Shown in pieces: positions 9,765 through 59,830 of a stretch of DNA of 64,000 nucleotides. The position numbers were made by a program, and so were the translations under genes. Source of the stretch: Prorocentrum cordatum (Eukaryota); assembly GCA_963575745.1 (NCBI GenBank), contig CAUYUJ010000225.1:124001-188000 (forward strand), written 5' to 3'. The notes under the pieces are model-generated. The model had not been told where the DNA came from and did no database searches. It saw only the letters and a program-made list of their open reading frames with translations. Numbering within the stretch: the stretch's first letter is position 1; every line of letters starts with the position of its first letter.

Positions 9765-10650
9765 AGCGCTGTGTTTTCCAGCTTGTCCAGCTTTTCCTAG
9801 AGACTGCCCCGGTGAAAAGCGCTGCGTTTTCCAACTCTTCCAGCTTTCATCGCAACGAAACCATTGAAAAACGCTGTGCTGTCCAGATTTTCGAGCTCCT
9901 CTCAGTTGAAAGACGTTGTATTTTCAAGCTTTCCAGCTTTTCCCAGAGATTGCCCCGTTGAAGAAGGTTGTGTTTACTAGCTTTTCCAACTTTTCCCAGA
10001 GACCCCCCCGTTGAAAAAAAACGCTGTGTTTTCCAGCTTTAGCAGGGCAATGCGCGGGAGAAGCTAGAAAAATCTCGAAAAGCAGGAACACACAGCGTTT
10101 TTCAATGGGGTAGTCTCTGGGAAAAACAGGAAAGGCAGGAACAGCTGGGCAATGCAACCTTTTCCCACGGGGTCGTCTCTGGGAAAAATGGAAAAGCAGG
10201 AGAAGCTGGAAAGCACAACGTTTTTCAATGGGGTCGTCTCTGGGAAAAAAGGGAAAAGCAGGACAAGCAGGAAGACACAGCGTTTTCCAATTGGGCAATC
10301 TCTGGGAAAAGCTTGACAAACTTGAAAGCACAGCGTTTTTTTTCCAACATGGTAATATCTGGGGAAAGCTGGAAGAGCAGGAACAACAATGTGTTTCAAT
10401 GGGGTATCTGGGAAACGCTGGAAAAGCAAAATAAGCTGAAATCACACAGCGTTTTTCAGCGGGGTAGTCTCTGGGAAAAGCTGGAAAAGCAGGAAAAGCT
10501 TGAAACGCAAACGTTTTTCAATGCGGTAATCTCTGGGGGAGGCTGGGAAAACAAACGAAGCAGGAAAACGCAGGAGCATGAAACCATGGCGTTTTCAATG
10601 GTTTAGCTGTGGCGAAAGCTGGAGACGCTGGAGAAGCTGGAAAACATAAC
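9765..10650. repeat. Two head-to-head arrays of a ~55-65 bp degenerate minisatellite
   Basis: The unit ACAGCGTTTTTCAATGGGGTAGTCTCTGGGAAAAGCTGGAAAAGCAGG repeats in 10060-10650. Its reverse complement (TTTTCCAGCTTTTCCCAGAGAC...TTGAAAAACGCTGT) repeats in 9765-10040. Confidence 0.85.
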
Positions 10651-10723
<73 letters not shown>

Positions 10724-10829
10724 TGTGTGGGGGGGGGGGGGGGGGGGGCTCATGGAAAAGCTGGGGGAGGAGGGAGGAGGAGGAGGAGGGGGGGGGGGAG
10801 GAGGAGGAGGAGGAGGATCGAGGCGGATG

Positions 10830-13800
10830 ATGCCCGCGGGGTAAGGCAACTGCGCCGATCCACAAGTACTCCCGCGCGCGCCCCCGCGCGCGCCCTCGCC
10901 TCGGCGCGGTCGCGCGCCCGAGGCCGTCAGGCAGGCCTCGGCCTCACCTCGTGCAGCCCTCAGCAGCCTCGCCACCTTGGCGGCCATGCCTGGCGAGCAG
11001 CTTCTCTCCCGCGCGCGGCGCCTCGGCCTCGGCCGCGCGCCGCCGCCGCCCGCAGCCCCTGCTTCGCTTCGAGCAGCAAGGCCACCTGCAAGCGGCTGGG
11101 GCCCCTCCGGCATCCTGGCCTCCTCGGCCGCACTTCCGCCTCCCACGGCCCCTGCTTCGCATCGAGCAGCAGAGCCACCTGCAGGCGGCTGGTGCACCTC
11201 CTGCGCCCTGGCAACCTTGGCCTCACGCTGCCGCGGCGGCGCCGCGCTGCACGCGCGCCTGCTGCGCCTCTGGGGCGCGCCCCCTGCCTTGCCGCCCTCG
11301 GGCGGCTCTCCTCTCGTGGTCTCCAGCAGCGCGTCCACGTCGACTTCCTCCGCGCCGCTGGTCTGCACCTTGCTCACTCCTCCTGGATCACCTGCTTCGA
11401 CCATCCCCTGCGAGCTGCCTCCTTCATCATGTGCAGGCAGGTATGCAGCCGTAGCCTCCTGCACACCCGCGCCCGCTCCTGCCGCCGCGGCGCTGGCCTC
11501 CGCTGCCTGGTCTGCCCGTCCGCCAGCCACCTCCGCGTCAAGCAGCTCCCCGCAGAAGTCGTCGAGGCGCGCGATGACGAATGGGACCACCCTCGCTGTG
11601 CGGGGCGCGAGCCCCCGCTGCAGCTTGGCCACCACCGCGCTGCCCGACGCGGAAGGCGGCATCTTGCACTCTCCGCTGAAACCGCATACCCTGGCGGCTC
11701 CCGCGATCCCGCAGAGGCGGCAGGCGACCAGCGGCATCCTGCGCTCCAGCTGCTCATCCACGGTGGGGCGGATGACCACCAGGTCGTGGGCGGTGAGCCC
11801 CTGCTGCCTCAGCCTCCTGTTGGCCTTCGCCGCGTCCGCCACGATGGAGCCTGGGCACTCGCCCACTCTCTCCTCCGACCTGCAGACTTCGCACCACCTG
11901 GGCTGCCCAGGCAGCCCGCGCCAGGTGCAAGCCACCTGCGCTGCTGCTGTGCGCCTCTCAGGAAGAGCCCGCTGCTGCTTCACCTTGCCGTGCGTGGTGT
12001 CGCTGCCGTCAACCCAGGTGCCCACAGCCGAACACCACAAGGCGACCCTGTCCACGAGGCCTCGGCTTTGCGCAAGGCGCAGGCGCTCCTGGCCAGGCAG
12101 GCGCCCAGCATCGGCTGCCGCCTTGGCCGCGCGGTCGGCCAATCGATTGCCGTGCCAGTCACGGTGCGACACCTTCCCAGCCGCCACTTGCTGCCTCGCG
12201 CTGTGGCTGGGCATCCACCTCAGTTGCACCTCGCCGCCCAGCCCTCCACGTTCATCCAGCAGCGCCCAGGCCTGCCTCCACAGGTGCGCCCAAGAATGAT
12301 CACTGGCCGTCGTACGCGCGCGCCCCGCCTGGTAGGAGCCGTCGAACACGTACTTCGAGTCCACAACCAGCACAGTGTCACCGTGCCCGTACCTCTGGGC
12401 CATGATCACTGCCGTGAGCTCGCTGCCGTTGATGTCGACGTACGGGCCAACCACCTGTCCAGCGACCGACGCCCTGTACACATCCTCACCCTGCATCAGC
12501 GCGACGGCACTCCAGCCCGCCGCCGTGAACTCACCGTAGTCCGCCTCGAACACCGAGCCGTCCAGGAAGAGCTCCCCAGCTGGCAGAACGCCCTCCTCAT
12601 GTTCGCCCTTCCAGCATACCAGGTCGCTGGCCTGAGGCTTGCGCACCCCCCCCGGCACTGGCCACAGGCACCTCCCCAGCAGCAACTGGATCCCAGGCTG
12701 CTGCCATCTCCTCCTGAGGTCTTCGAGGTCTGGGGGAAGGGCCAGCACCTCTCGCAAGCTAGCACAGTCACAATGCCTGTGCACCAGGGTGCCCTCCAAA
12801 CCGCACCTTAGACACCCCGCGCAGTTGGCCAGCCCTTTCTCCGCCTTCCGTGCCTGCGTCCACTGCCCGTTGACGATCAGGGACCGCAAGTACGCCATCT
12901 CGCGCTGCGTGAGCCGCGCCTTGACTTTGCCAGCCCCTCCTCCCTGCAGCCCCTCGGGGTGGAGCACTCTCCCTGTGGTGGTCAGCCTCACCAGCGGCTC
13001 GAGCTCCCCGCCTGCTGCCAGGTGGCTGCACCCTGGGTGCTTGCTGACTTGCCTCCACTGCCACCTCAGCACCGCTCGCATGACCAGCTTACGCACGACC
13101 CACGGCGCTACGTCGAAAGGCGCGATGGTGTTGCCGTCGTCCATGACCCAGCCGTTGGCTTCTTGCACCTCCCACCCGATTCTCCGCAGCGACATCACCG
13201 TCGCAGCGCATGGCCCCTGCACGTGAGCCCAGGTGGTTGCCCTTTTGTCCTGCAGACCGCGGACAACCATGTGGAAGGGGCACCCAGTTCTCCCACACCG
13301 CCCGCAGCAGCATCATCACGGGCATGCAGGTCGCGTCGATGTTCGGGTCGAGCCCAGGCTGAAGCATCAGCCCCAGCGACCTGCTCTTGCTGGCCGTGGT
13401 GTTGGAGACCGCCACGAACGACATAGTCCTGGCGCGGTCCAGCTCACCCATCGCGCACCCCGTGATGGCCGTGCCGTAGCCGATGCTAGGGTGCAGCCCC
13501 GTCTTCACAACCCTCTTAGCTGCGATCCTCTTGGCCTTCACCACCTTCAGCACCTTGAACTTCCTCAGCCTTTGCCCCGCCTGCTGGTAGCGGCCCTCGC
13601 GCACCGCGCGCCCTAGCCTCTTGCCCCCGCTGAAGTCACCCCCCAGGTTATGCTCCTGCCGCACCGCCAGCACCCCCAGCGGCTTGCGCAGCCTCTTCTC
13701 CAGCTCCTGCCTCGCCTCAGGGAAGTTGGCGAGGGCTCTGGACTTCTTGACCGCGACCGCCAGGTCCACCTCGCTGAGCAAGACCTTGAAGTGCCCTGGC

Positions 13801-18498: not shown

Positions 18499-18520
18499 CT
18501 TGAGCCAAAATGGCTGCGGA
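18499..18520 (-). other. Dinoflagellate spliced-leader (DinoSL) copy at LINE 5' end
   Basis: The minus strand reads TCCGCAGCCATTTTGGCTCAAG versus the DinoSL consensus DCCGTAGCCATTTTGGCTCAAG (21/22). Confidence 0.95.
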
Positions 18521-25119: not shown

Positions 25120-25689
25120 CCACGCGCGCTTCGCGCGCGCTTAGGTTCTGTCGCAACCCGTGGCGCTGTGATGACACGAAGGTCGGGCTTGCGGACGACC
25201 CGCGGCCAGAGAAGAGCTGCGGTCGTCACGGGCAGGTTATGGGATGTCGCAGGCGTCCTCGGATTGGCCTTAAGGCTGTTTAGGCGCTGTCCTGAAGGGA
25301 GAGGGGGGGCAGGGTGTCTTTGGCCTCAGCTGCGCTGTCCAGGATTGCCAGAAAAGGTGTCACGACGCGCAAGTCTTGGCTTGCGGTCTCGTCGGGAAGA
25401 GGGCACTGACTGGCTTGCGGATGCAATGTCGAGGCCGTAATGTATAATGATCTTTGGGTGACCTCATATATGTCATTGGATTGGCGTTGGCGCTGTGTTG
25501 GGGAAACGGGAGCTTTGTAACACGTAAAAGCATTATATTCAAATGTGTTTGCACGATGTGATGTGCTTTCCTTTTTTTTCCTGTGGTCCCCCTTCCCTTT
25601 GCTAGCGATGGCCACCGCCGCGCGCAATTTGCAGGGTGGGCCAGCGCCGCGCCCAGGCCTCTCTCCGGCGCGCAGGAGCAGGAGCCACG

Positions 25690-28600
25690 TCAATCCGCCC
25701 GTAGCCAAATGAACAGGTCGCCCTCAGGAGACCGCTCCACGCGCAGCTCGGCGTCGCGGAACGTCGTGAGCATGGCGACGCCCCCGGGCGGGGCGGCCTG
25801 GGCCACGGGCAGGGGCAGTGCCGGCAGGCCCGGCGTGCTCGACTGGAGCGCGCCGCTGAGAAAAGCAATGCTCACGACGACGTCCGAGACCGGCGTCGCG
25901 GACGCCTCGAGGAGCACCCGGGCGCCGCCGGGGACGAACGGCGGCGCGAGCGCCAGGGCGGCCAGCAGCCCGGCGCCCCGCGGGGCGAGCTCCACGGCGT
26001 AGGAGGCCTTCGCCGGCCTGCCGGGCAGGGCGACCTGAAGGAGGAGGAGGAGGAGGAGGAGGAGGAGGAAGAGGAGAGGAGGAGGAGGAGGGAGGAGGAG
26101 GAGAGGAGGAGGGGAGGAGGAGAGGGGAGGAGGTGGAGGAGGCGGAGGAGGGAGCGACCTGGGAGTGCCACTCCTGGGTCACCTCGCCGCACTCCAGCAG
26201 CGGCAGCGAGCCGAGCCGGGGCAGCACCGCAGCGTCCGACCACAGCAGGCGCCACCTCCCCACCAAGGAGCTCGCGATCTGGGGTTCCGCGCCGCCGGAC
26301 CTCCCGGCATCGACGGGGCCCAGCGCCTCAAGCTCGCACACGCACGCCATGACCTCGGCCTGGCACTCGTCCGACACGGCCCCGAGGCCGCGGTTGAGCC
26401 CCGCCGCGCACCGCAGCAGCCGCTCCCGCAGCGCGAAGCGGGCGCCCGACAGCATCCCTGGGTACCAAGGCGTGCCTGGCTCGCCACGGACGAACCGGCT
26501 CACCTGGGACACGAGGGCGCCGATGGAGTCCTCAGGGGGGGGTATTTTTTTGTTCCCCCTCGTGTTTCCCCCCCCCCCCCCCCCCTCGGGGGGGAGGTCT
26601 TTATTTGTTTTTCCCTCGGAGATTTTTTCCCCTCTCAGAGTCTATGTTTTTTTCCCTCGGGTATGTTTTTGTTTCCCTCGGGTCTTTTTTACCCCCCCCC
26701 TCTCGGGTGGGGGGCCGGCAGGGCTGGGGGAGGACAAGGGCCTCGAGGCTGTTTTCCCCTCTCCGGGGGGGGTCGCGAAGGGCGAACCGGGGAGGCCTAG
26801 GGGTGTCATGGCGTCGGGGTGTTAGGGGCTTCGGGTCTCAGGGTCTCGGGGTATGAGGGCCTTTGGGTCTTAGGGCTGAGGGTGTAGGGTCATAGGGTAT
26901 TAGGGTCTTAAGGTCTTAGGGCCCTTGGGTGTTAGGCTCTGAGGATTTGTGGGTATGAAAGTATCAGAGTCTGACTGCGTTGTGGTCTTAGGGTGTTAAG
27001 GCATCGAGGTATTCGGGTATGCACGTATTCGGGTATCAACCCCTTAGGGTATGAGGGCGTTCGGATCTTCGGGTCTTCAGATGTCTGGCCTCAAGGTCTT
27101 ATGTTGCTTGGGCTTTAAAGCCATCGGGCGATAGGGTATCATGATATTGCTGTGTGTTGTGCGTTCGCGTGCTAGGGCCTTAGAGTATTGGTGTATCAGG
27201 GTATTACGGTATTCGGTATCATCAGGGTCTCAGGGTGTTCGGGAATTATCAGTGCATCAGGGCACTAGGGTGTTAGGGTATGGTGGTATGCGGGTATGAA
27301 GGTACTCGCGTGTTAAGGTATTCGACAATTGATATGTTAGGGCCTCAGGGTATTAGGGCATTCGTGTATTAGGGTGTTCGCGTGGTAGTGTATTCAAGTA
27401 TTACGGTGTTCGGGTGTTCAGGTGTTCGGGCATGAAGGTATTAAGGTTTCAGGAGTTAGGGTACTAGGGTATCAGGGTAGGGGATGATGGTGTTAAACCA
27501 TCAGGGTATTAGGGTCTTAGGGTTTTGAGGTATTAGGGTAGTAGGGCTCTAAAGTGTCAGGGTCTTGGGGTCGAAAGGTCTTAGGGTCTTAGGGTCTTAC
27601 GGCATGGAGGTGTTAGGGTATGAAAATATTAGGGTCTGTGGGTCTTAATGTGCTGGTGTATGGTGGCATCCGGGTGATATGGTATGATGGTATGAAGGTA
27701 TTCATGTGTTAGGGTATTAAGGTATTCGGGCATTAAGGCATTAGGGTGTTAGGTTTTGGGGTATGAGGGCCTTCGGGTGTTTGGGTGTTAGGGCTTGAGC
27801 GCATTAGGGTCTTAGGGTGTTAAGGTCTTACGGCTCTAGGGTGCTAGGGTCTTCGGGTCTTAGGGTCGTTGGGTGCTAGGGTCCTATGGTCGCTCGTCTT
27901 ATGGAATTGAGGTATTAAGGTCGTCGGGTATTATGGGACTAAGGGCTTCAAGGTATTACTGCGTTGTGGTACTAGGGTGTTAAGTGCATTCTGGTATTGT
28001 GGTATTGGTGGTATCATGGTATTCGGGTACTATGGTGTTAGGGCATCGCGGAATTAGGGCCTTAGGGTGTTAGGGTCTTGGGGCTCTAGGGTGTTAGGGT
28101 CTGAGGGTTTTTGGGTGTGAGGGCCAGCCTTATGATATTTAGATACTAATTTGTTCGGGTATTAGCGCATTGTGGTATTAAGGTGTTAGGGTCTTATAAT
28201 ATTAGGGCATTCGGGTATTTGGGTGTTAGGGTCTTAGGGTGTTAAGGTGGTAAGGGTCCTCAGGTTTTAAGGTGTTAGAGTCTTAGGGCCTTCGTAATTT
28301 AGAGTGTTAGGGTGTCCGGGTGGTAGGGTCTTAGGGTGTCAGGGTCTTAGGGCCTTAGGGTCTTAGGTGGCACTTTAGGGTCTTAGGGTCTTCGGGACTT
28401 GAGGTGTTCCGGTGTTAAGGCCATAGGGTATCAGGGTATTCGGGTCTTAGGGTGTTAATGTCTGAGGGTAATCTGGTACTAGGGTCTTGAGGTCTTAGTC
28501 TGAGGGTCTTAATGTGTTATGGCCTTGGACACTCGGTTCTTAGGGTCTTAAGGTTTCAAGGTTTTACGGCGTTGTGGTACTAGGGTGTTAAGGCATTGTG

Positions 28601-30468
28601 GTAGTATGGCATTGGTGGTATCATGGTAGTAAGGTATTATGGTGTTAGAGCATCACGGTATTAGGGCCTTACGGTGTTAGGGTGTTGGGGCTCTAGGGCT
28701 CTAGGGTGTTAGGGTGTTGGGGTCTGAGGTTTTTTGGGGGTGAGGGTCACATTCAGGCATTCGGGTATTAGGGTGTTAAGCTATTACGGCCTTTGGGTGT
28801 TAAGGTGGTAAGGGTCCTGAGGTGTCAAAGCGTCAGGGTATTATGGCCTTTGGGCCTTACGGTGTTAGGGTGTCCGGGTGGTAGGGTCTTAGGGTGGTAG
28901 GGTCCTAGGGCCTTAATTTCTTGGGGTGTTAGGTTCTCAGGGTCCCATGGTTTTAAGAGATTAGGGTCTTGTGGATTTGGCACTTTAGAGACTTACAACC
29001 CCGTGCGAAAAGCAACTGGGGTTTTCGTGCACACCTCCCCCCCCCCCCCACCCCCCAATTTCAATGTTCAACGCGGGGTCGATTTTTTTTTTTTTTCGAA
29101 CTTCGCTGGTCGCACGATGAAAATTGAAATTCGGGGGCCGGGGGGCTCACCAAACCCCAGTTGCTTTTCGCACGGGGTTGTAGGATCTTATGGTCTTAGG
29201 GTGTTCGGGCCTTAAGGTCGTCGGGTCTTGAAGCGTTCCGGTGTTAGGGCCGTAGGGTATCAGGACCTTAAGGTCTTAGGGTGTTGATGTCTTAGGGTAA
29301 GATGGTACTAGGATCTTGGGGTCTTCGAGTCTGAGGGCCTTAGGGTGTTTTGGTCTTAGGGTATTCGGTTCCTACGCCCTCAGGGCTTCAAAGTGTTCCC
29401 GAGTTGTTGTACTAGGGGGTTAAGGCATTGTGGTAGTATGGTATTGGTGGTATCATGATAATATGGTATTCTGGTGTTCAGCCATCACGGCATTGGGGCC
29501 CTCGTGTGTTAGGGTCTTGGGGCTCTACGGTGTTAGGGTCAGAGGGTCTTAGGGGGGTTGGGTGTGAGGGCTTTGTGGTACTGGTGTATTGAGTCATTCG
29601 GGTTTTAAGGTGCTAGCGCATTGTGGCATTAAAGTGTTAGGTTCTTATAAGGTGAGGGCATTCGTGTCTTAGGTTGTTAGGGTATTACGGCCTTTGAGTG
29701 TTAAGGTGGTAAGGGTCCTGAGGTGTTAAGGTGCTAAGAGTATTAGACCTTTGGGCCTTACGGTGTTAGGGTGTCCGGGTGGTAGGGTGTTAAGGTATGA
29801 GGATATTAGCGTGTTAGGTTCTCAGGGTCCTATGGTTTTAGGATGTTAGGGTCTTATGGGTTTTGCGCTTTAGGGTCTCAGAGTCTTACGGTCTTAGGGT
29901 GTTCGGGCCTTAAGGTCTTCGGGTCTTGAAGCGTTCCGGTGTCAGGGCCGTAGGGCATCAGGGCCTTAGGGTGTTGATGTCTTAGGGTAAGAATGGTACT
30001 AGGGTCTTGGCGTCTTAGAATCTGAGGATGTTATGGTCTTGAGGTATTAAGTTCATAGGGTCTTAGGGTGTTGGGGCATTATATCATCATAGTACTCAGG
30101 CATTCGAGGATTAGGGTCTTAGATTGTTTTGGTCTTAGGGTCTTCGGATCATGGGGTATTAGGACCTTTTGGCCTTAAGGCCTTAGGGTGTTATGGTCTT
30201 AGGGTACCAGGGTCTGGGGGTCTTAGGGTTTGTAGGTGTTCTGATCTTTGGGTGTTTTTTCCGCGTGGGAGCGCGCAAAGGGTCCGAATGATCACCATCA
30301 CCGAATCATCATCATCGTCATCATCATCATCATCATCGTCATCATCATCACCATCATCATCATCACCATCATCACCACTATCACCATCATCCTCAGCATC
30401 ATCATGGTCGACGGCATCGTTATGACATCACCATCATCATCCTAATCATCATCCTCATCATCATCGTT

Positions 30469-30511
<43 letters not shown>

Positions 30512-31078
30512 ACACCATTCTCAATTATTATGTTGTTCACCCCTCGCGAGAACGGCATCCGCTGCCCCCTCGAACGAAAGCCGCCGAGCATGCTGGACTG
30601 GCGCGGTGACGGGACTTTCCGCAGGCAGCTCGAGACTTACACATCCGCTACACGGATGGAAGGCGGATCTTTCCAAGACGGGGCTTTGGACTGAGTGGCA
30701 GGCCGATGGGGCGTTACCTTTGAAGGGAGCGCTTCCCGCAATGCAAATGGAACGTTTGCATGAGGATTCTACGGAAGGGTCTTGGGACAGGAGGGTATTG
30801 CAGAATCCTTGATGCATCCTGGGTTTACTCTGATCCTTCTCCTCCTCCTTCCCCGCCTCCTCTCTCATTTCTTTCGCCCTCTATTTCCCTCCATCCTCAT
30901 CCTAGCTCACACTCCCTAGCTCCAAGCCCGTGGTCCCTACGTATGGCTCCTGGCTCCTGCCGATGCTCAGGCTACAGCGTCTGTTCCTGTGACCTGTCAA
31001 TGTTGCTGTTACTGCTACTCGCACTGATGCAGTTCCTCCTCCTCCTCCATCATCATCATCAGCATCATCATCATCGCA

Positions 31079-31130
<52 letters not shown>

Positions 31131-31140
31131 CCATCACCAC

Positions 31141-31187
<47 letters not shown>

Positions 31188-31191
31188 CCAC

Positions 31192-31228
<37 letters not shown>

Positions 31229-31299
31229 GTCGCCATCATCATCGCCACGACCACCATCATTATCATCATCACCACCACCATCATCATCATCACCCCCAC

Positions 31300-31337
<38 letters not shown>

Positions 31338-31560
31338 CCATCATCACCATCATCACCCTCACCATCACCATCATCGTCATCATCATAATCAGCATCATGG
31401 TTTCCATTATCATTATCACCGTCCTCATAATCATCATCATGGTCATCATCATCCTCGTCGTCCTTATCAGCATCAGCATCAGCATCAGCATCAGCATCAG
31501 CATCATAATCAGCATCACCATCACCATCACCATCACCATCACCATCACCATCACCATCAC

Positions 31561-31598
<38 letters not shown>

Positions 31599-31650
31599 CC
31601 ATCATCATCATCAGCATCAGCATCAGCATCAGCATCAGCATCAGCATCAG

Positions 31651-31687
<37 letters not shown>

Positions 31688-33580
31688 TTCATCATCACCA
31701 TCAACACCATCATGTTCATGCGCTGGCAGCACAATATGTGCTGGAAGCGAGACGGCACGTTCTGGCGCTGCCTGGCCTCCCCCCCTGGGGGGGCCCACCT
31801 GGGACCCCCCCGGCGATAGCCCCAGGCAATTCCTCCCCCTCCCATGGCCCCTCTCTGGGGCCTTCCTTGCACCCCCCCGCCCTGTCCCCTGCCCCCCCCC
31901 CCTCCCGAGGAACAAAAAAAAAAAGCTAGAGGGGGAAAAAAAAAAAACGCCTCCGAGGGGGAACAAAAACAGCTTCGACGCCCCTGGGCCCCTCCCCTGG
32001 CCCCCCCCCCGAGAGGGAAACAAAAACGACTCGAGGGACCCCCAAAAAGCCTCCGAGGAGGAACAAAAACAACAGACTCGATGCCCCCAGGCCGCCCCCC
32101 ACCGCCGAGGGAACAAAAAAAAAGACAAGCCCGAGTCCTCACTGCCGCCGAGGCCGTTGGGGAGGTCCAGGGGCGTGGTGTGCCCGCCCTCCAGCCGCGC
32201 CCGTTCCACCGTCGCGCCCTCCGGCGCCGCTGGCGGCATCGGGGCCTCCAGCTCCGGCTCCGCCGGTTCGGTCTCGGCGTCCAGCTCGAAGTCCACAGAC
32301 TCGCCCCACCAGCCCAGCTCGCTCAGCTCGCCCCACTCCTCGTCGCCCCAGTTGTCCTCGCCGTACGCCTCCTCGAACGCTGCCTCCATGGCCTGGTCGA
32401 GCGCCTCGTCCAGGGCCGAGCGGCCCGCACCCTCCTGCGTCGGGAGCGGGAGCTCCTCGCACTCGAAGGTGGACAGGAACCAGGGCGTCTCGTCCAGCGC
32501 GTCGTCCGCGAACTCGACGAGCAGTGTGCGCGGGGCCAGCGCGTCGACCCTGCGCAGCCGCCGGGCCAGCTCCCGGCGCGAGGGCCGGAACACGCGCCGG
32601 CCCACCGCGAAGTCGCCGAGCGACAGCGCCGCCTGCGCCAGGAGCCTCGCCGCGTCCCGCGCTGCCGCCGCGGTGCCCGGGCTGGCCCCGCGCGCCCCCA
32701 GCAGGCCGCGGGCGGCGGCCTCGAGCCCGCCCGCCAGGCGGCGCTCGCCGAGGAGCCTGCGCGCCACCAGGCGGGCCAGCTCCGCCGCTGGCGCCACGGG
32801 CCACGGCGGCGGCGCTGGGATGGCGGCTGGGATGACGTCGGAGATGGGCCGCTGGTTGAGGCCCAGGAGCACGTTGCCCGTGCACGTCCGGCGCTCCGCG
32901 AGGAGGAGCACGAGCGCCCCGCCCAGCGAGTGGCCGACGCAGTACAGCGGCAGTCCTGTCAGCCGGACGCCCCTGCGGCCCGCCAGCTCCAGCACTGCCG
33001 CGTCCAGCGCGTCCGCCGCTTGAGCGGCGCTCTCCTCCAAGTCGGACGTGACCTTGTAGGGAGTCGCCACGACGGCCGCCGAGGACTCCGCCGCCAGCCC
33101 CTCCAGGAAGCTGCGGTAGAACAGCGCTGGCGCCGCCCCTGCGCCGGCTGCCCCCACGAAGTGGACCAGGGCGGACGGCGGCCCGCGGGGCAGCAGCACG
33201 CTGCAGCCCCCCGCCGTCTGCCACGCGGGCTCGTCCTTGGCTGCGGGGACCTCCTCGGCCCACTCGTCCTCCTCGCCGCCCTCCTCCCGGAGGCCCCCGC
33301 TCGGCTGGGGCCCGCTCTGCCCGGGCCCCAGGGCGGCGCGGGCAGCCCCGGAGGGCCCGCGGCGGCCGCCGCTGCGGCCCGCGCGCCGCGCAGGCGCAGC
33401 GCCGCGGCGCCCGCAGCGCGGCGCGCGGGCGATGCCGGCCCCGAAGGCGAGCGCGCTTGTGGCGGCCACCGCGCCCGCCGCGGCCGCCGCGGCCGAGGCG
33501 CCGCGCCGCTCGGCGGCGGGGCATCCCGCAAGCGGGCCGCCTCCGTGGGCACGCGGCGCCGGCGCGTGCGGCAGCATCAT
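25690..33580 (-). CDS. Spliced gene, ~719 aa: DUF1350-type alpha/beta hydrolase fused to a PAP/fibrillin domain, probably plastid-targeted. Exons 33580-32138, 26530-26159, 26034-25690
   Basis: Exon 1 carries DUF1350-like motifs (LVHFVGAAGAGAAPALFYRSFLEGL, VATPY, LPLYCVGHSLG, LLVEFADDALDET, LEGGHTTP). Exons 2-3 carry fibrillin motifs (LLRCAAGLNRGL, LVGRWRLLWS, LTTFRDAELRVERSPEGDLFIW). Exon lengths are 1443, 372 and 345 bp, and the exons join in phase 0 without stops. Confidence 0.82.
26035..26158 (-). other. Intron 2 (124 bp, GT-AG), CCT-rich, bounded by an 8-bp direct repeat
   Basis: Donor CCCAG|GTCGC and acceptor TTCAG|GTCGC. Removal joins WHSQ to VALPGRPAKASYAVELAP in frame. Confidence 0.88.
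26795..30240 (+). repeat. Degenerate telomere-like satellite (TTAGGGTC/TTAGGGTG/TTAGGGTA octamers) with higher-order periodicity
   Basis: Hundreds of TTAGGGTN-like units. The marker gttgtggtactagggtgttaag or close variants recur at ~26980, ~27963, ~28571 and ~29403. Confidence 0.9.
28996..29180. mobile_element. 185-bp MITE, Tc1/mariner-type (TA TSD)
   Basis: Perfect 29-bp TIR CAACCCCGTGCGAAAAGCAACTGGGGTTT, with TA at 28994-28995 and 29181-29182. Confidence 0.93.
30290..30515. repeat. (CAT)n microsatellite
   Basis: Direct reading of the sequence. Confidence 0.95.
31048..31712. repeat. (CAT)n/(CATCAG)n/(CATCAC)n compound microsatellite
   Basis: Direct reading of the sequence. Confidence 0.95.
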
Positions 33581-33649
33581 CGCCGGCGCGTGCGGCCGTG
33601 GCGCTGCCCGGGGGGCTGCCTGCGGGGAGCCCTCGCTGCGGGCGCTGCG

Positions 33650-33659
33650 CTTGAGCCAA
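33650..33659 (-). other. Truncated spliced-leader relic upstream of the DUF1350-fibrillin gene
   Basis: TTGGCTCAAG equals the last 10 nt of DinoSL. It lies ~70 nt upstream of the ATG, exactly where low-complexity DNA changes to GC-rich genic sequence. Confidence 0.7.
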
Positions 33660-36404
33660 TTTCCCTGGGGATATTCGTGGAGAGGAGTGGGGAAACGTGG
33701 AGTACGGGGACGAATGCGGAAAGGTTGGGACGAGTATGGGGGCATGAAAAGGAGATTGGTGGCGAGAATTTTGATTGGGTGGGAAGGAGCAGGAACAGAG
33801 GAGCGGAGTGGAGTGGAGTGGAGTTGACTGGAAAGTAACTGAAATTGATTGTGGAGGAGTGGAAGACGGGAGGGATTGTGGGTTGGATAATCGAAAAGAG
33901 CGCAAAATAATGCGGAAGTATAGGGGTGGGGAGGGGTGGAGAGGAGTGGGGAGGAATGGAATGGACTGTGCAGGAATGGGGAAGAGTGGAGTGGAGTGGA
34001 ATGGTGAGGAGGGAAGAAGTGCATAGAAGTGGGGATGAGTGAAGTTGGGTGGAATAGGGCGGGGAAGAATGGGGAGGAGACGGAGTACAGTGAAAGAGAA
34101 CGCACGCGCTATCACACAGACTGGTTGCACACATGCATGCAGGGCACGATCGAAGACGAAGAGGGCGGGTATCGAGTGTTTGGGATGCACATGTTCAACG
34201 GAACTCGAGCATAGGAAAGCGAACAAGTGTAAGATGATTGGTGTTGCTGGTGTTGTGAGCCTGGGACCAGGGGCAAAATATGAGGCTCAAGACTTTCCCT
34301 GCTAGGCTGCGAGCCGCGGGAGGAGCACTTTCATTGAAAAGTGCAAGGCGCACTGGAGAGGGGGATCAACAACACATATTCTTTAGACATGAGAACTCAA
34401 TAACGCAGCACCAGCAGCAGCAACACCACACACCAACAACTACACCAGCAGCAGCAGCAGCCCCAACAACAACACCAACAGCAGCAGCAGCAACACCAAC
34501 ACCAACAACACCAACAACAGCACCATCAGCAACGACAACAACAACAATCATGTTAAGACTGTTCGCACTTATGTGCTCGCGTACCATTCAACACAATGTC
34601 TTTCTTGTCTGCGACGTGTATTTCGTGCAGCACCTCAGGCAGGGGAAGAGAGGACGGATGGAAGGAAGGGACAAGGGGGAGAGAGGAGGATGGAGCACGA
34701 GAGAGAGAGAGAGTAGCAGGAGGGGGGCTAGGAGCAGAACACACGTGGCAAAACCAGATGGGCAGATCGAGCGGATAGACCCTAACAGGCGGGCTTAGGT
34801 GGCCAGGTCGAGCAGGCGGGTTGCTGAAGCGTGCGTCCTGCATGAATCGGGAGGAAGCCTTGAGCGACAGCGCGATTCCAAAATAAATCTGGTGAGGATA
34901 TCCAAAGCGCAAGCGTGATTCATGAGTGTCGAGGGCGCGGCGCCTGAATCAATTGCGAGGAAGGTCCCAAGCGACAGCGCGATTCCTGAGTGTCGAAAGC
35001 GCGACGCTGAATAAATTGCGAGGAAATAACAGGCGAGAGCGTGATTCTGCGAAAACGCTGTAAGGAAATCCTTAGCGAGAGCGAGAGTCTTCAATGCATT
35101 GCATGGAAGGATCAGGCGGGAGCAGATGTTGTTGTAAACCGGAGGCCAGGGGCGCAGTTTGAGCAGGAAGATCTTCTTCGGTAAAAACACAGCGGGCCCC
35201 GGGAGGAGCACCTCAATCGAACAAAAACACGTATGTTACGCGAATGCGTGAGTCCTGCGCAAATCGCCAGGAAGTCTCGGGCGAGAGCGCGATTCCCAAG
35301 TAAAGTACGAAAGGGGCCCCAAGCGAGAGCACGATTCCTGAATAGCGAGGGCGTGGCGCCTGAATGCATTGCGAGGAAGTCACAAGCGAGACCGCGATCC
35401 TTGGATAAATTGCAAGGGGATCCCTAGCGAGAGCGGGGGTCATCAGCAAATTGCGAAAAAGTATCAGGCGGGAGCCGCTGTTGTTGTAGTCCGGGGGCCA
35501 TGGCCGCAGTTTTAGCAGGAAGATTTCCCCCTGCAGCAAAAAAAAGGTGCGAGCCCCAGGAGGGGCATTTCAATCGAACAAACACATGTGTTACCAGAGG
35601 GGGGATCAACAACAGTAACTATTCTTCAATCGTGAGAAGTCAACAAAGACAACGACACCAACAACGACAACCACAACAACATCAGCAGCACCACCACCAA
35701 CAACAACAACACCAGGTGCAACAACAAACACAACAACACCAACAATAACAACACCAACAACAACAACACATACAGCACTTACCACAACAACACCAACAAC
35801 AGCAATACCACCAACAACAATACTTACAACAACAATAACAACATCAATAACAACACCAATAACACCAACAACCCGGTTACTGCTGTTCCATCTTACCTGC
35901 TCGAATGTCATCCAACGTGTATTTCCCAAACCCTCGATACCCGCCTCTTTCGTTTTCGATCGTACCCCTTTTGGGGGGTATATCTTTCTTCCCTGCAGGC
36001 CGGGCCCCGGCAAGCGGCGGGGCGGCCGCGGACCGTCGGCCTGGCCAGCGGCAGCGCTGATCGGCAGCGGCCCGACCCCAACAAGGACGGACAGGGGACC
36101 GACCGCGACGACGACGACGACGACGACGAGCGAAAGCGAGAGCGAGAGCGGGGCCACGAATGGCAGGAAGGGTACTCAGGAATCGCGATCTCGCTTGGGA
36201 CGTCCTCACAATTAACTAAGGAATCGCTCTCTCGGGGTTCTGAAGCCGCGCTCTCGCTGGAGACGTGCTTGCAATTTCCTCCAGAATCGCGTTTTCGCAT
36301 TGGAATTTCCTGCCATTTACTCAAGCGCCGCGCTCCCGACACTCAGGCATCCAGGAGTCGCGCTCACGCTTAAGACTCTTTCACAGCTTACTTAGGATTC
36401 GGGA

Positions 36405-36930
36405 TCTCGCTGCCCTCCGTGGCCACGTTGCAGCCCTTCGTGGCCCCCTCGCTGCCCTTCATGGGCCCGTTGCTGCACTTCGTGGGCCCGTTGCAGCCCG
36501 TCGTGGCCCCCTCGCTGCCCTTCGTGGCCCCATCACTGCCCTTTCGTGGCCCCCGCTCGTTCGCGCCCGTCGCGGCTCCATATATGTATGCCCTTCGTGG
36601 CCCCGCTGTCGCCCTTCGTGGCTACCTCGCTGCCTCTCGCTGCCCTCAGTGGCCCCGTCCTTGCCCTCTGCGGCCCAGTATACGCATGTCCTTCGTGGCC
36701 CCCGCTCCTTCGTGCCCGTCGTGGCCCCATATCCATGCCCTTCTTGGTCCCGCTGTCGCACTATGTGGCCCCCCCGCTGCCCTACGTGGCCCCGTTGCTA
36801 CCCTCAGTTGCCCCGTCCTTGCCCTCTGTGGCCCCGCATTATCTGCCCTTCGTGGCCCCCCGCTCGTTCGCGCCCTTCGTTGCCCCATGCGCATGCCCTT
36901 CGTGTCCCCGCTGTCGCCCTTCGTGGCCCG
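36405..36930 (-). repeat. ~20-21 bp minisatellite (GGGGCCACGAAGGGCAGCGA), reverse orientation
   Basis: Repeated cccttcgtggcccc units. Confidence 0.9.
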
Positions 36931-37471
36931 AGGAAGTCTCAGGCGGGAGTGTGGGTCCTGGCTAAATCGTGAGGAAGTCTTAATCGGGAGCCGTTGTGGT
37001 TGTTGTTGTAACCCTGGCGCCACGGGCATAGTTTGAGCCTAGTGCGTGTTATTGATTTTTTGTTTTTAAAGCAAGGATGCGCGCCCCGGGGGAAGCACCT
37101 CAATCGAAAAAAACACAGTGGTCACCGGAAGGGGGGGGGCCAACAATAATCAGTCTTCAATAATGAGAATTCAACAACCATCATTTTAAGACTGTTCGCC
37201 ATTATCAGCTCGAGGGTCGTTCAACGTGTGTTTCCAAACCTTCGATACCCGCCCTCTTCGTCTTCGATCGTACCCCTTTTGGGGGGGTATATCTTTCTTC
37301 CTTGCAGGCCGGGCCCCGGCAAGCGGCGGGGCGGCCGCGGACCGTCGGCCTGGCTAATGGCAGCGCTGGTCGGCGGCAGCCCGACTCCAAGAGGGACGGA
37401 CAGGGGACCGACCACGACGACGACGACGACGACGGCGACGAAGACGACGACGAGCGAAAGCGAGAGCGAGA

Positions 37472-38322
37472 GCGGGGCCACGAAGTACAGGAAGGGGGTC
37501 ACGAAGGGCGACAGCGGGGCCACGAAGGACATGCGTATGGGGCCAGGAAGGGCGCGAACAGGCGGGGGGCCACGAAGGGCAGATAATGCGGGGCCACAGA
37601 AGGCAACGACGGGGCCACTGAGGGAAGCAACGGGGCCACGTAGGGCAGCAAGGGGGTCACGAAGTGTGACAGCAGTGCCACGAAGGGCGTGCATATGGGG
37701 CCACGACGGGCGCGAACGAGCAGAGCCACGAAGGGCATACGTATATGGGGCCGCAGAGGGCAAGGACGGGGCCACTGAGGGCAGCAACGGGGCACGAAGG
37801 GCAGCGAGGGGGCTACGAACGGCGCCAGCAGGGCCACAAGGCGCATGCATATGGGGCCACGACGGGCGCGAACGAGCGGGTCCACGAAGGGCATACATAT
37901 ATGGGGCCACGATGGGCAGCAGAGGGGCCAACGGGGCCACGAAGGGCAGCGAGGGGGCCACGAAGGGGCGCAACGGAGCCACGAAGGGCAGCAGAGGGGG
38001 CCACGAAGGGCTGCAATGGGGCCACGAAGGGCAGCGAGGGTGCCACGAAGGGCTGCAACGGGGCCACAAAGGGCAGTAGGGGGGCCACGAACAATGGGGC
38101 CACGAAGGGCAGCGAGGGGGCCACGAAGGGCTGCAACAGGGCCACGAAGAGCAGCGAGGGGGCCACGAAGGGCTGCAACGGGTCTGCGAAGGGCAGCGAG
38201 GGGGCCACGAAGGGCTGCAACGGGGCCAAGAAGGGCGACAAAAGGGGCCACGAAGGACTGCAACGGGTCTGCGAAGGGCAGCGAAGGGGCCACGAAGGGT
38301 TGCAACGGGGCCACGAAGGGTA
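37472..38322 (+). repeat. Same ~20-21 bp minisatellite, forward orientation
   Basis: Repeated ggggccacgaaggg units. Confidence 0.9.
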
Positions 38323-39239
38323 GCGAGATCCAGATTCCCAAGTAAGCTGTGAGAGAGTCCGAAGCGTGAGCGCGACTCATGGGTGCCTGAAAGTCGGGAG
38401 CGCGGCGCTTGAGTAAATTGCAAGGAATTCCAACGCAAGAGCGCGATTCCCTGGTAAATTGCAAACGAATTTCCAGCGAAAGCGCGACTTCAGAGCGCCG
38501 AGAAAGCGATTCCAACTTGTCAGGAGGTCGCAAGCGAAAGCGCGATTCTCAATTCTCGCTCTCGCGCGGGACTTCCTCACAATTCATGTGCGCATCGCGC
38601 TCTCGCGTGGGACTTCCTTATACTTTACCCAGACGATGCGCCCTCGGCGCTCAGGAATCACGCTCTCGCTTTGGTTTTTCATGCGATTTACTTGGGAATC
38701 GCGCTATCGCTCGAAACTTCCTCGCGATTCATGCAGGACCCCACGCTTCAGCAACCCGCCTGCTCGACCTGGTCGCCTGGGCCCGCCTTCCCGACCTGCC
38801 CGCTATGGGTCTGCCCACCCGATCTGCCCGTCTGGTTATATCACTTGTTTTCTGCTCCTTGCCCTCCTCCTGCTGACTGCTCTCGTGCTCCATTCTTCTC
38901 CCTCCCCCTTCCACCCGTCCTCTCTTCCCTTGTCTTAGGGGCTGCACTAAATGCCCGTGGCAGGTAAGAGTACGATCGAAGACGACGAGGGCGGGTACCG
39001 AGAGTTCGGGACATGTGTATGGACTGGCACGTGAGCAGATTGGGGCGAAACAAATTATAATGATTGCTGTTGGTGTTGTTAAAATGCGGGGGCCAACAAC
39101 GTAGTTTGAGCCTAGGGACTTTCCCTGATAAAAACAAGGTGCGAGCCCTGGGGGAAGCACTCCAATGAAAAAACACGATGGTCACCGGAGGGGGGATCAA
39201 CAATCATTTTTCTTCAATCGTAAGAGTTCAGCTCCCTCC

Positions 39240-56527: not shown

Positions 56528-56529
<2 letters not shown>

Positions 56530-56625
<96 letters not shown>

Positions 56626-56672
56626 ATAGTAATAGCAGTAGCAGTAGCAGTAGCAGTAGCAGTAGCAGTAGC

Positions 56673-56719
<47 letters not shown>

Positions 56720-56721
56720 CT

Positions 56722-56779
<58 letters not shown>

Positions 56780-56797
56780 CAATGACAGTCGTAGTAA

Positions 56798-56839
<42 letters not shown>

Positions 56840-57027
56840 GGTAGGTTAGTAGGTAGGTAGGTAACATTAGTAGTAGTAGTAGTAGTAGTAGAAGAAGAAG
56901 AAGAAGTAGTAGTGGAAAAAGTAGAATTAGTAGTAGTAGTAGCAGTGGTAGTCGTAGTCGTCGTCGTCGTAGTCGAAGTAGTTGTAGTAGTAAAGATATT
57001 ACAGTAGTACTAGTAGTAGTAGTCGTC

Positions 57028-57061
<34 letters not shown>

Positions 57062-57762
57062 TAGTAGTCGTAGTAGTAGCAGTAGTAGTAGTAGTAGCAG
57101 TGATAGTAGTAGTAGTAGTTGTCGTAGCAGTAGTAGTCGTCGTCGTCGTCGCATTAGTAGTGGTGGTGCGAATAGTAGTTGTAGTAGGAGTAGTAGTCGT
57201 AGTCGTAGTAGTAGTAGAAATAGGATTAGCAGTAGTAGTAGAAGTAGTAGTGGATGAAGTAGTAATAACAGTGGTTGTAGTATCAGTAATAGTAGTAGTT
57301 GTTGTACTAATAGTATTGATAGTCGTAGTAGTAATACTACGAGGACTAACAATAGTAATTATTACTAGTGCTAATAGTAGTAGTGTTAGTAGGAGTAGTA
57401 GTCGTCGTCGCATTAATAGTGGTGGTGGTAGTAGTAGTAGTACTAGGATAGTAGTCGTAGTAGTAGTCGTAGTAATCTTACTAGCACTAGTAGTAGTAGT
57501 GGTAATAATAATAGTAGTAGTAGTAATAGTAGTAGTAGTATTGGATGTAGTAGTAGTAGCAGTAGTAGTAAGAGTGGTAGTAGTAGTGGTAATAGTACTA
57601 GTACTAATGGTGGTCGTAATAGAAGTAGTAGTAGAAGAAGTAGTAGCACTATCATCCGTACTAATCGTAGTAGTAGTAGTAGTAACGATTGCACGAATAG
57701 TAAGATACGTGTTCGTAGTAGTAGTAATAGTCGCAGCCGTAGTAGTAGTAAGAGTAGTAGTC

Positions 57763-57802
<40 letters not shown>

Positions 57803-58384
57803 TAGTAGTCGTAGTAGTAGTAGTAGGGATCGAAGTAGTCGTAGTCGTAGTAATGGTGGTAGCAGTAGCGATCGTAGTAGGAGTAGTGATCGTAGTCCTA
57901 GTCGTATTCGTATTCGTAGTAGTGGTAGTAGTAATAGCCGTCGTCGTAGTAGTAGTAGTCGTCATGATGGTAGTAGCAGGGATAGTAGTAGTAATAGTAG
58001 TGGAATAAGAAACATAACAAGTACAATTATAACTAGCAGCCGTAGTCGTAGTAGACAAGGGTAGTGGTGGTGGTGGTAGTGGTAATAATATTACTAGTCG
58101 TAGCAGTGATGGTGATCGCACTAGTAGGAGCAGGAGTCGGAGGAGTGGTAGCAGTAGTAGCAGAAGTAGTCGTAGTAATGCCATGGTCATAGTAGTACAG
58201 GTGGTAGTAGAAGTGGTTGTAGTAGTAGAAGTAAAAGTAGAACTAGTAGTAGTAGTGTTAGTAGCAGTAGTGATATCCGTAGTAGAAGCATGTAGTATGT
58301 AGCAGTAGTTGTAGTAGTGGTAATAGTAGTAGTAGTAGTAGTAGCAGTAGTAGTAGTAGTAGTCGTAGTAGTAGTAGTAGTAGC

Positions 58385-58415
<31 letters not shown>

Positions 58416-58744: not shown

Positions 58745-58782
<38 letters not shown>

Positions 58783-58944: not shown

Positions 58945-58988
<44 letters not shown>

Positions 58989-59785: not shown

Positions 59786-59830
<45 letters not shown>

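What the first reader, a model, noticed from the sequence alone, without database searches (positions are those of the whole stretch)
26526..32141. 5.6-kb transposon that becomes a seamless GA-AG intron using its own 9-bp TSD
Seen: on the gene strand both junctions read TGAG|GACTC. Splicing from AG|GA in the first TSD copy to AG|G in the second removes 26531-32137 (5607 bp) and restores the frame exactly. The enclosed DNA has TIRs. Known: dinoflagellates use GT, GC and GA donors, introner elements are reported in this group, and 9-bp TSDs are typical of Mutator-like elements. Inference: intron gain in which both splice sites come from the duplicated target, here with an unusually large, satellite-filled element.
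Basis: partly seen in the sequence, partly recalled or inferred. Interest (0 to 1): 0.85.

Follow-up and report, generated by a model that had tools for sequence, protein, structure and literature searches.

The report
Transposon-made GA-AG intron in dinoflagellate gene
A 5.6-kb jumping-gene remnant sits in a protein-coding exon of a dinoflagellate gene and is missing from the mature message exactly at its duplicated target site, a clean example of a way of making new introns that is already described for this group.

Summary
GAGTCCTCA occurs at 26526-26534 and 32133-32141. It flanks a 5,598-bp non-coding element with degenerate terminal inverted regions of about 220-260 bp, an 8-mer satellite and (GAT)n arrays.

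The host gene, on the minus strand, encodes a DUF1350-fibrillin fusion protein. Transcript contigs from 3 of 4 laid runs, one of them a poly(A) RNA library, join 26525 to 32133. That skips 5,607 bp with 9 bases of ambiguity, shows 0 mismatches, and leaves no depth inside the element. Only one register inside the repeat gives an AG acceptor: GA...AG|G, removing 26531-32137 in phase 0.

A 633-aa orthologue with the same fusion aligns straight across the junction, with a 1-residue length difference. A relic DinoSL at 18499-18519 marks the genome as dinoflagellate.

Both splice sites recruited from an AGGH target duplication are described for Polarella glacialis classes 13 and 14 and for Florenciella. 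GA donors and kilobase introns are ordinary in high-GC dinoflagellates.

Not shown: that the RNA comes from a genome carrying the insertion, that the element belongs to a multi-copy family, or that it is Mutator-like.

Verdict: a new member of a known kind, of moderate interest.

The parts
32133..32141 (-). Gene-5' copy of the 9-bp target-site duplication (TGAG|GACTC on the gene strand). TGAG ends exon 1; GACTC starts the intron and supplies the GA donor.
   Evidence: joint with 9 ambiguous bases
26526..26534 (-). Gene-3' copy of the 9-bp target-site duplication. TGAG ends the intron and supplies the AG acceptor; GACTC starts exon 2.
26531..32137 (-). Inferred spliceosomal intron, 5,607 nt, GA...AG followed by G, phase 0
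   Evidence: skips 5607, both = 9, in X1, X15 and X5. This is the only register with an AG acceptor (sequence).
26535..32132 (.). Inserted non-autonomous TIR element, 5,598 bp. No Pfam-recognisable ORF.
26535..26760 (.). Left terminal inverted region with repeated T-run + GTTCCC(C)TCGG motifs. On the gene strand its C-run gives a pyrimidine tract just upstream of the AG.
   Evidence: (D19, I5, I12, I16, I22)
31870..32132 (.). Right terminal inverted region carrying the same motif array in inverted orientation
   Evidence: (D17, D18)
26800..30260 (.). Degenerate 8-mer satellite (GGGTCTTA / TTAGGGTN on the + strand). In this window it is confined to the element.
   Evidence: 20 of 20 matches lie inside the element
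28994..29182 (.). 189-bp hairpin with perfect 31-nt arms, probably a nested small foldback or MITE
   Evidence: (I1), (DNA fold z = -11.4)
30284..30511 (.). (ATC)n-type microsatellite
31048..31713 (.). (CATCAT)n microsatellite, 111 units
32138..33580 (-). Coding part of exon 1 (ATG at 33580). N-terminal presequence-like region plus a DUF1350 alpha/beta-hydrolase-like domain (GHSLGG).
   Evidence: (PF07082, E 2.5e-20)
26159..26530 (-). Exon 2, the start of the PAP_fibrillin domain
   Evidence: (PF04755, E 1.8e-7)
26035..26158 (-). Intron 2, 124 nt, GT...AG, made of (CCT)n and itself flanked by an 8-bp direct repeat CAGGTCGC
25690..26034 (-). Exon 3 coding part, up to the TGA stop

Best explanation
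A non-autonomous DNA transposon inserted into the coding exon of a dinoflagellate gene for a DUF1350-fibrillin fusion protein and duplicated 9 bp of target (TGAGGACTC on the gene strand). It has long, degenerate terminal inverted regions and is now swollen to 5.6 kb by an 8-mer satellite, microsatellites and a nested hairpin.

The duplicated target happens to contain AG|GA. The upstream copy therefore offers a dinoflagellate-type GA donor, and the downstream copy offers an AG acceptor followed by G. The spliceosome removes 26531-32137, leaving exactly one copy of the target in the mRNA, so the protein is unchanged.

The element itself supplies a C-run pyrimidine tract just upstream of the AG. 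Its inverted ends can pair in the pre-mRNA, which may bring the two splice sites together.

Shown: the TSD, the TIRs, the absence of the 5,607 bp from poly(A) RNA, frame restoration and orthologue continuity. Inferred: that the RNA is made from this insertion-bearing locus, that splicing uses the GA/AG register, and any role for the pyrimidine tract or end-pairing.
For: TSD and junctions.

TIRs: and (score 63 against shuffles 19.65 +/- 2.69, max 36). The terminal motif TTGTTYCCYCTCG has 3 of 3 window matches in the two ends, with 0.23 expected.

RNA: the joint 26525->32133 (skips 5607, both = 9) appears in one contig each of X1 (2,095 nt), X15 (816 nt, poly(A) RNA) and X5 (1,939 nt), that is 3 of 4 runs. 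Every listed piece has 0 other letters and 0 gaps. The same contigs also skip intron 2, so they are mRNA. Depth is 0 in all 14 bins from 26735 to 30752 and in the bin 25300-25586 for these three runs, so DNA carry-over is not visible.

Strand: the thin raw reads of X23 over the exons are almost all 'first mate on +', as expected for a minus-strand RNA in a stranded library.

Protein: the spliced CDS is 2,160 nt, giving 719 aa with no internal stop. It is identical to orthologue P0003 at 268 of 596 aligned columns and runs continuously across both junctions. P0003 residues 6-373 match exon 1 and residues 380-504 match exon 2. P0003 carries the same two Pfam domains.

Taxon: relic DinoSL, 20 of 21 bases, 0 expected by chance; the SL sequence was checked in PMC6050394.

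Splice-site plausibility: dinoflagellate donors are GT, GC or GA, the acceptor is AG followed by G, and GA is enriched among new introns (preprint 10.1101/2020.10.14.339549, parts 1-2 read; PMC10666404 passages).

Likelihood: only 225 of 2,152 9-mers (10.5%) of this CDS contain AGGH in sense. A random disruptive insertion would seldom carry usable sites.

End-pairing: cofold gain of -55.8 kcal/mol against -25.3 +/- 7.5 in 40 shuffles, best shuffle -49.3.
Against: No run on record as DNA was available, and the whole genome is not held. It is therefore not shown that the cells that made the RNA carry the insertion, nor that the gene is single-copy.

No read or contig crossing an exon-element boundary (unspliced precursor) was listed. 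The raw-read run X23 was too thin (about 1x over the exons) to show the joint at all.

The cut register cannot be read from the RNA, because 9 bases are ambiguous. GA...AG is chosen because it is the only register with an AG acceptor.

No second copy of the element was found: none in the window, and none in the metagenome or viral collections with one 20-nt motif. No transposase was found. The element's status as a transposon therefore rests on the TSD plus the TIRs.

The end-pairing excess is modest; one shuffle reached -49.3.
Confidence: 0.75

Rival explanations
1. This locus is a gene copy killed by the insertion. The perfectly joined mRNA comes from an insertion-free paralogue, allele or strain with identical exons.
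For: Dinoflagellate genes are often multi-copy (established knowledge). The runs that show the joint are transcript assemblies or an environmental metatranscriptome, and their genomes were not examined. No unspliced precursor was seen.
Against: The three contigs show 0 differences from this locus over 2,095, 1,939 and 816 nt. Meanwhile the element's TIRs (72-85%) and satellites (about 60-70% between units) look old. A long-dead copy should have drifted from the live one. The TSD holds AG|GA in the sense orientation, which only 10.5% of sites in this CDS would offer. Only one copy of the gene lies in the 64-kb window.
Confidence: 0.15
2. The 5.6 kb is not a transposon but filler DNA or satellite captured during repair of a staggered double-strand break, which also leaves a short duplication. 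It is spliced as above.
For: No transposase, no second copy, imperfect termini. The neighbouring 124-nt intron 2 has an 8-bp flanking repeat but no TIR.
Against: The two ends carry the same motif array in inverted orientation, well beyond shuffles. Break repair does not predict this.
Confidence: 0.05
3. An older intron existed here and was later invaded and enlarged by the element, so the element did not create the intron.
For: This is a common fate of introns. Two earlier notes of this scan on other genomes reached that verdict for palindrome-filled introns.
Against: The duplication straddles the exon-intron boundaries: half of each copy is exonic, and one full copy remains in the mRNA. An element landing inside an old intron would have both TSD copies wholly intronic. 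No intron sequence lies outside the element apart from the TSD bases.
Confidence: 0.03
4. The joint is an artefact: reverse-transcriptase template switching, or assembly collapse, at the 9-bp repeat.
For: Direct repeats with non-GT-AG ends are the classic signature of RT template switching (established knowledge).
Against: The same joint is the only form in 3 runs from 3 studies. Depth inside the element is 0, so the supposed unspliced template is not there. The orthologue protein agrees with the joined form.
Confidence: 0.02

Closest known systems
Polarella glacialis introner-like elements, classes 14 and 13 (Roy et al., preprint 10.1101/2020.10.14.339549; published Curr Biol 2023, not read)
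   Same: [quoted passage not shown] The mRNA is left unchanged. Strong phase-0 bias; here the intron is phase 0.
   Different: Those classes have 4-nt TSDs. Here the TSD is 9 nt with AGGA in the middle. No 9-nt class and no 'Mutator' appears in the preprint text. Those are abundant families, whereas this is a single copy in hand. The sizes of those elements were not seen in the parts read.
P. glacialis ILE classes 3, 6, 8 and 10 (8-nt TSD) and Aureococcus/Micromonas introners (Huff et al. 2016, recalled)
   Same: Long (8-nt) TSDs that supply splice-site bases. Class 3 can splice in several registers relative to the TSD.
   Different: Most of these carry one splice site within the element. This element carries neither.
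Florenciella sp. introners (Gozashti et al. 2022, PMC9860276, Fig. 2E legend)
   Same: [quoted passage not shown]
   Different: A stramenopile host and a different element. Details were not read.
IE+ introns of Prorocentrum cordatum and introners of Amoebophrya (PMC10666404, PMC7789003, passages)
   Same: Dinoflagellate introns with inverted repeats at both ends and direct repeats over the exon-intron boundaries. P. cordatum has long introns (mean 4,709 bp), 23.8% GA donors and high GC. Hairpin pairing of the intron ends has been proposed to join the exon boundaries.
   Different: Those were defined with 3-5-nt direct repeats and 8-20-nt inverted repeats. Here the direct repeat is 9 nt and the inverted regions are about 220-260 nt and degenerate.
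Non-autonomous Mutator-like elements (MULEs)
   Same: A 9-bp TSD and long (about 200 bp) TIRs are the classical Mutator hallmarks (established knowledge, recalled).
   Different: No MURA-type transposase, no family-specific terminal motif and no second copy were found, so membership is unproven.

Membership tests
Spliceosomal intron (dinoflagellate type) | Precisely absent from mature poly(A) RNA | tested here: met
   the joint that skips 5,607 bp is seen in 3 of 4 runs, including the poly(A) RNA run X15, with depth 0 inside. Caveat: the genomes of the RNA sources were not seen.
Spliceosomal intron (dinoflagellate type) | G[T/C/A] donor and AG acceptor followed by G | tested here: met
   Sequence: one of the 10 registers gives GA...AG|G. 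Norms taken.
Spliceosomal intron (dinoflagellate type) | Unspliced precursor or lariat from the same locus | tested here: inconclusive
   no boundary-crossing read or contig was listed. Raw reads were about 1x, and 230 pieces and 152 loose ends were not shown.
TIR DNA transposon | Target-site duplication flanking the element | tested here: met
   Exact 9-bp repeat
TIR DNA transposon | Terminal inverted repeats | tested here: met
   Imperfect: only the terminal GGG is shared at the very tips, then T-run + GTTCCC..TCG.
TIR DNA transposon | Transposase, or further copies showing mobility | tested here: not met
   Pfam found nothing in 6 of 6 element ORFs. There is no other copy in the window and none in 2 collections searched with one 20-nt motif. 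The genome is not held. The element is at best non-autonomous.
Introner / introner-like element family | Many similar copies forming introns of unrelated genes | not testable with these tools
   No genome is held. The window has a single copy.
Introner / introner-like element family | Insertion creates the intron, with splice sites from the TSD or element ends and the mRNA unchanged | tested here: met
Mutator superfamily (MULE) | 9-11-bp TSD and long TIRs | tested here: met
   9 bp; inverted regions of about 220-260 nt. The criterion itself is recalled, not taken from a call.
Mutator superfamily (MULE) | MURA-type (MULE) transposase, or similarity to a known MULE | tested here: not met
   no Pfam family. 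No similarity search against a TE library was possible.

The most novel reading that the evidence does not exclude
The element is one copy of a still unrecognised Mutator-like (9-bp TSD, long-TIR) introner family of a high-GC, Prorocentrum-like dinoflagellate. Its kilobase-scale, satellite-laden copies survive in exons because the host's relaxed GH donor and AG|G acceptor rule lets about one target in ten supply both splice sites. On this reading such insertions, rather than later growth of short introns, would be a main source of the very long introns of these genomes. The neighbouring 124-nt intron, with its own 8-bp boundary repeat, would be a second and older trace of the same process.
Probability: 0.25. 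Interest if true: 0.55.

Novelty: new member of a known kind. Interest (0 to 1): 0.4.

Why it matters
How new spliceosomal introns arise is an old question, and dinoflagellates are the richest known field of ongoing intron gain.

This locus is a very clean single case. The insertion scars (TSD, TIRs), the RNA and an orthologue all agree that a 5.6-kb insertion in a coding exon is harmless because the duplicated target itself supplies a GA donor and an AG acceptor.

It adds a 9-bp-TSD, long-TIR element type and a kilobase size to the published catalogue, which lists TSDs of 3, 4, 5 and 8 nt in the text read. It does not change the picture.

Tried and rejected
- Whole-genome search for more copies: no genome is held.
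- Public collections: the last 29 nt of exon 1 gave 0 hits in metagenome contigs. A 20-nt TIR motif gave 0 hits in metagenome and viral contigs. These were exact-match scans with one motif each, so they are weak negatives.
- Earlier notes of this scan: nothing for this genome, by sequence, or with all words.
- Coding capacity of the element: 6 of 6 ORFs had no Pfam hit at E <= 0.1.
- Rfam at gathering threshold and tRNA scans of the window found 0 hits.
- Pfam on 20 long ORFs of the window, tried to place the organism, gave only a weak AAA_11 hit and an RNase_H hit. The ESM Atlas on P0003 gave only DUF1350 and fibrillin clusters at scores of 0.79-0.84, with no taxon.
- Haptophyte (Emiliania-like) origin was considered because of the GC content and satellites. 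Passages of PMC4028052 report 56% GC-AG junctions and one RT-PCR-verified GA junction there. I dropped this in favour of a dinoflagellate after finding the relic DinoSL.
- Raw reads of X23: about 1x over the exons and no joint. The pile-ups at 26568-26587 and 29037-29056 are poly-C reads and are uninformative.
- Two other large inverted satellite structures (36.1-38.7 kb and 56.5-61.4 kb) were checked for the same termini or a flanking duplication. They lack the motif, and no shared 9-mer lies at the ends of the second.
- 'Introner' + 'Mutator' in the paper library: 3 papers, none about Mutator-type introners judging by title and abstract (listing only). 'Mutator' and 'MULE' occur 0 times in the main text of PMC12130899. 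Its Dataset S2, which classifies introner families, was not opened and may bear on this.
Full report
**1. What is in the sequence**

On the + strand the 9-mer GAGTCCTCA stands at 26526-26534 and again at 32133-32141. The bases on either side differ, so the repeat is exactly 9 bp, and the start-to-start distance is 5,607 bp.

Between the copies lie 5,598 bp (26535-32132) that differ in composition from the flanks: about 50% GC against 66-75%, with a GC-skew reversal near 30.2 kb.

The two ends are related in inverted orientation. The repeat finder lists arms of 26 nt at 85%, 19 nt at 95%, and 16 nt and 15 nt at 100%. A local alignment of the left 266 nt with the reverse complement of the right 283 nt scores 63. 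The 200 shuffles averaged 19.65 +/- 2.69 (max 36), the direct-orientation control scored 28 and the reversed-only control 26.

The ends consist of repeated T-run + GTTCCC(C)TCGG motifs. The pattern TTGTTYCCYCTCG (up to 1 mismatch) occurs 3 times in the 64-kb window, all in these ends, against 0.23 expected. At the very tips only GGG is shared.

The interior holds:
- a degenerate 8-mer satellite (TTAGGGTN-like) over about 26.8-30.25 kb; 20 of 20 window matches to a 15-nt double unit lie inside the element;
- (ATC)n at 30305-30511 and 111 units of CATCAT at 31048-31713;
- a 189-bp hairpin with perfect 31-nt arms at 28994-29182.

Six of six ORFs tested from the element gave no Pfam hit.

**2. The host gene**

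The gene is on the minus strand.
- Exon 1 (coding 33580-32138) carries a DUF1350 domain (PF07082, E 2.5e-20).
- Exon 2 (26530-26159) begins a PAP_fibrillin domain (PF04755, E 1.8e-7).
- Exon 3 (26034-25690) completes the fibrillin domain.

On the gene strand both junctions read TGAG|GACTC. Taking out 26531-32137 joins codon GAG to codon GAC in phase 0.

The spliced CDS is 2,160 nt, giving 719 aa with no internal stop.

The protein search returned 2 proteins with E <= 1e-3 among the 8,000 candidates scored. The better one, P0003 (633 aa, E 3.9e-64), has the same two Pfam domains.
- P0003 residues 6-373 align with exon 1 up to ...PLDLP (42% identity, E 1e-42).
- P0003 residues 380-504 align with exon 2 from its first residue (54% identity, E 5e-39).
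- Six residues of P0003 face seven of the window between the two blocks.
- In a global alignment 268 of 596 columns are identical, with no break at either junction.

The protein therefore needs nothing from the 5.6 kb.

**3. RNA**

Twenty-four runs were listed for exon 1. Twenty hold part of it, 16 hold at least half of the sampled words, and 6 are on record as RNA, from 10 studies.

I laid 4 runs on 25300-33900. One contig in each of X1 (2,095 nt), X5 (1,939 nt) and X15 (816 nt; a poly(A) metatranscriptomic library) joins 26525 to 32133. This is reported as 'skips 5607' with 9 bases that fit either side. Every listed piece has 0 other letters and 0 gaps.

The same contigs also skip a second short intron, so X1 and X5, whose kind is not on record, are transcript assemblies.

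In these three runs depth is 0 in all 14 bins from 26735 to 30752 and in the flanking bin 25300-25586. DNA carry-over is therefore not apparent, and the element's interior is not in the RNA. The non-zero bins at 30753-31039 and 31614-31900 fall in low-complexity stretches.

The fourth run, X23 (raw RNA reads), covers the exons at about 1x and shows no joint. Its exon reads are nearly all 'first mate on +', as expected for a minus-strand transcript in a stranded library. Its pile-ups at 26568-26587 and 29037-29056 are poly-C reads.

**4. Which register**

The RNA cannot say where within the 9 bases the cut lies. Of the 10 possible registers, read directly, only one ends the excised piece in AG.

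This fits dinoflagellate rules. Donors are GT, GC or GA, the acceptor is AG followed by G, and GA is commoner among recently gained introns (preprint 10.1101/2020.10.14.339549, parts 1-2 of 4 read). P. cordatum is reported with 23.8% GA donors, 79.7% AGG acceptors and a mean intron length of 4,709 bp (PMC10666404, passages).

**5. Which organism**

No genome is held. The window contains TCCGCAGCCATTTTGGCTCAAG at 18499-18519 on the minus strand, which matches 20 of 21 bases of the dinoflagellate spliced leader. None is expected by chance.

I first typed the motif from memory, then confirmed it in PMC6050394, which also explains that DNA-encoded DinoSL relics mark retrogenes.

Together with about 60% GC overall, about 70-75% GC in exons and abundant satellites, this points to a high-GC dinoflagellate. 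A Prorocentrum-like identity is an inference and is not shown. I considered a haptophyte origin and dropped it.

**6. Mechanism and what is inferred**

Best reading (confidence 0.75): a non-autonomous TIR transposon landed in the exon and duplicated 9 bp. Because the target contained AGGA in sense orientation, the upstream copy gives the GA donor and the downstream copy the AG acceptor, so the insertion is spliced out without trace.

Only 225 of 2,152 9-mers (10.5%) of this CDS contain AGGH in sense orientation. The presence of usable sites therefore favours 'spliced intron' over 'random disruption' by roughly ten to one (my inference).

On the gene strand the element's terminal C-run lies directly upstream of the AG (...TACCCCCCCCTGAG|G) and could serve as a pyrimidine tract.

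The first and last 260 nt of the intron can pair. The cofold gain is -55.8 kcal/mol against -25.3 +/- 7.5 in 40 dinucleotide shuffles (best -49.3). The duplex energy is -239.4 against -203.8 +/- 11.9. This is a modest excess. Any role in bringing the splice sites together, as proposed for Amoebophrya introners (PMC7789003 passages), is inference.

**7. Rivals**

(a) The mRNA comes from an insertion-free copy, allele or strain, and this locus is dead (0.15). I could not exclude this, because there was no DNA run, no genome and no unspliced read. Against it: the exons here are identical to the mRNA contigs over up to 2,095 nt, while the element looks old and degenerate, and the TSD carries correctly oriented sites.

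(b) Filler DNA from break repair rather than a transposon (0.05). The inverted motif arrays at both ends argue against this.

(c) An old intron later invaded by the element (0.03). The duplication straddles the exon boundaries, and one full copy stays in the mRNA.

(d) An RT template-switch or assembly artefact (0.02). The same sole form appears in 3 runs from 3 studies, no template is seen inside the element, and the orthologue agrees with the joined form.

**8. Comparison with what is known**

The mechanism is published. In P. glacialis, class 14 introner-like elements recruit both splice sites from a 4-nt AGGH duplication. Class 13 does so in one of its two modes, class 12 uses NAGGH, and class 3 (8-nt TSD) makes introns in five registers on either strand.

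P. cordatum introns are reported as long and enriched in introner elements. Autonomous-size elements such as Copia also make introns (PMC12130899 passages).

What differs here is the 9-nt duplication and the long degenerate TIRs, the classical Mutator signature (recalled). Neither '9 nt' nor 'Mutator' occurs in the preprint, and 'Mutator' and 'MULE' are absent from the main text of PMC12130899. Its supplementary classification table was not opened.

Membership of an introner family needs many copies and could not be tested. Membership of Mutator fails on the transposase test and is otherwise only suggestive.

**9. Verdict**

This is a new member of a known kind. Interest is 0.4: a textbook-clean example with independent RNA and orthologue support, but neither the mechanism, the GA donor nor the size would surprise a specialist in dinoflagellate genomes.

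Noticed in passing
window 26035-26158 (minus strand), repeats at 26154-26161 and 26030-26037: The next intron of the same gene (124 nt, GT...AG, almost pure (CCT)n) is also flanked by a direct repeat, the 8-mer CAGGTCGC, which straddles both splice sites. It has no TIR. It may be an older insertion scar or a different route to the same architecture.
   Followed up: partly
window 18499-18519 (minus strand): Relic dinoflagellate spliced leader (20 of 21 bases, with T in the degenerate position before it), encoded in the DNA upstream of an ORF-rich stretch. This is the mark of a retroposed gene and the best clue to the organism.
   Followed up: partly
window 28994-29182: A 189-bp hairpin with perfect 31-nt arms (TACAACCCCGTGCG...), a poly-C/poly-G core and an A/T run, lying inside the 8-mer satellite. 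The DNA fold gives z = -11.4. It is probably a nested foldback or MITE. No other copy is in the window.
   Followed up: partly
window about 36100-38700: A large palindrome. Unique flanks (about 36250-36420 against 38320-38520) and 21-nt satellite arrays (36407-36929 against 37466-38327) are mirror images of each other. It is a foldback-type element unrelated to the one studied.
   Followed up: partly
window 56529-61435: About 2.5 kb of (AGT)n facing about 1.8 kb of (ACT)n, with inverted arms up to 725 nt at 70-74% and the same GC-skew flip as in the studied element. It lacks the studied element's terminal motif, and no shared 9-mer lies at its flanks.
   Followed up: partly
window 25690-33580 (minus strand) and protein P0003: The gene fuses a DUF1350 alpha/beta-hydrolase-like domain (GHSLGG) to a PAP_fibrillin domain behind a presequence-like N-terminus. 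The same fusion occurs in a protein that is 45% identical and comes from another organism, so the fusion is conserved.
   Followed up: partly
window 10598-13312 (minus strand): A 905-aa open frame with an RNase H domain (E 1.6e-6), possibly part of a retroelement. 62-nt tandem repeats lie next to it at 10077-10555.
   Followed up: no
window 30902-32137 (minus strand): If the intron were retained, the exon 1 frame would stay open for a further 1,236 nt into the element (a low-complexity D/G-rich tail) before a stop. Long open frames here are therefore no sign of coding.
   Followed up: no
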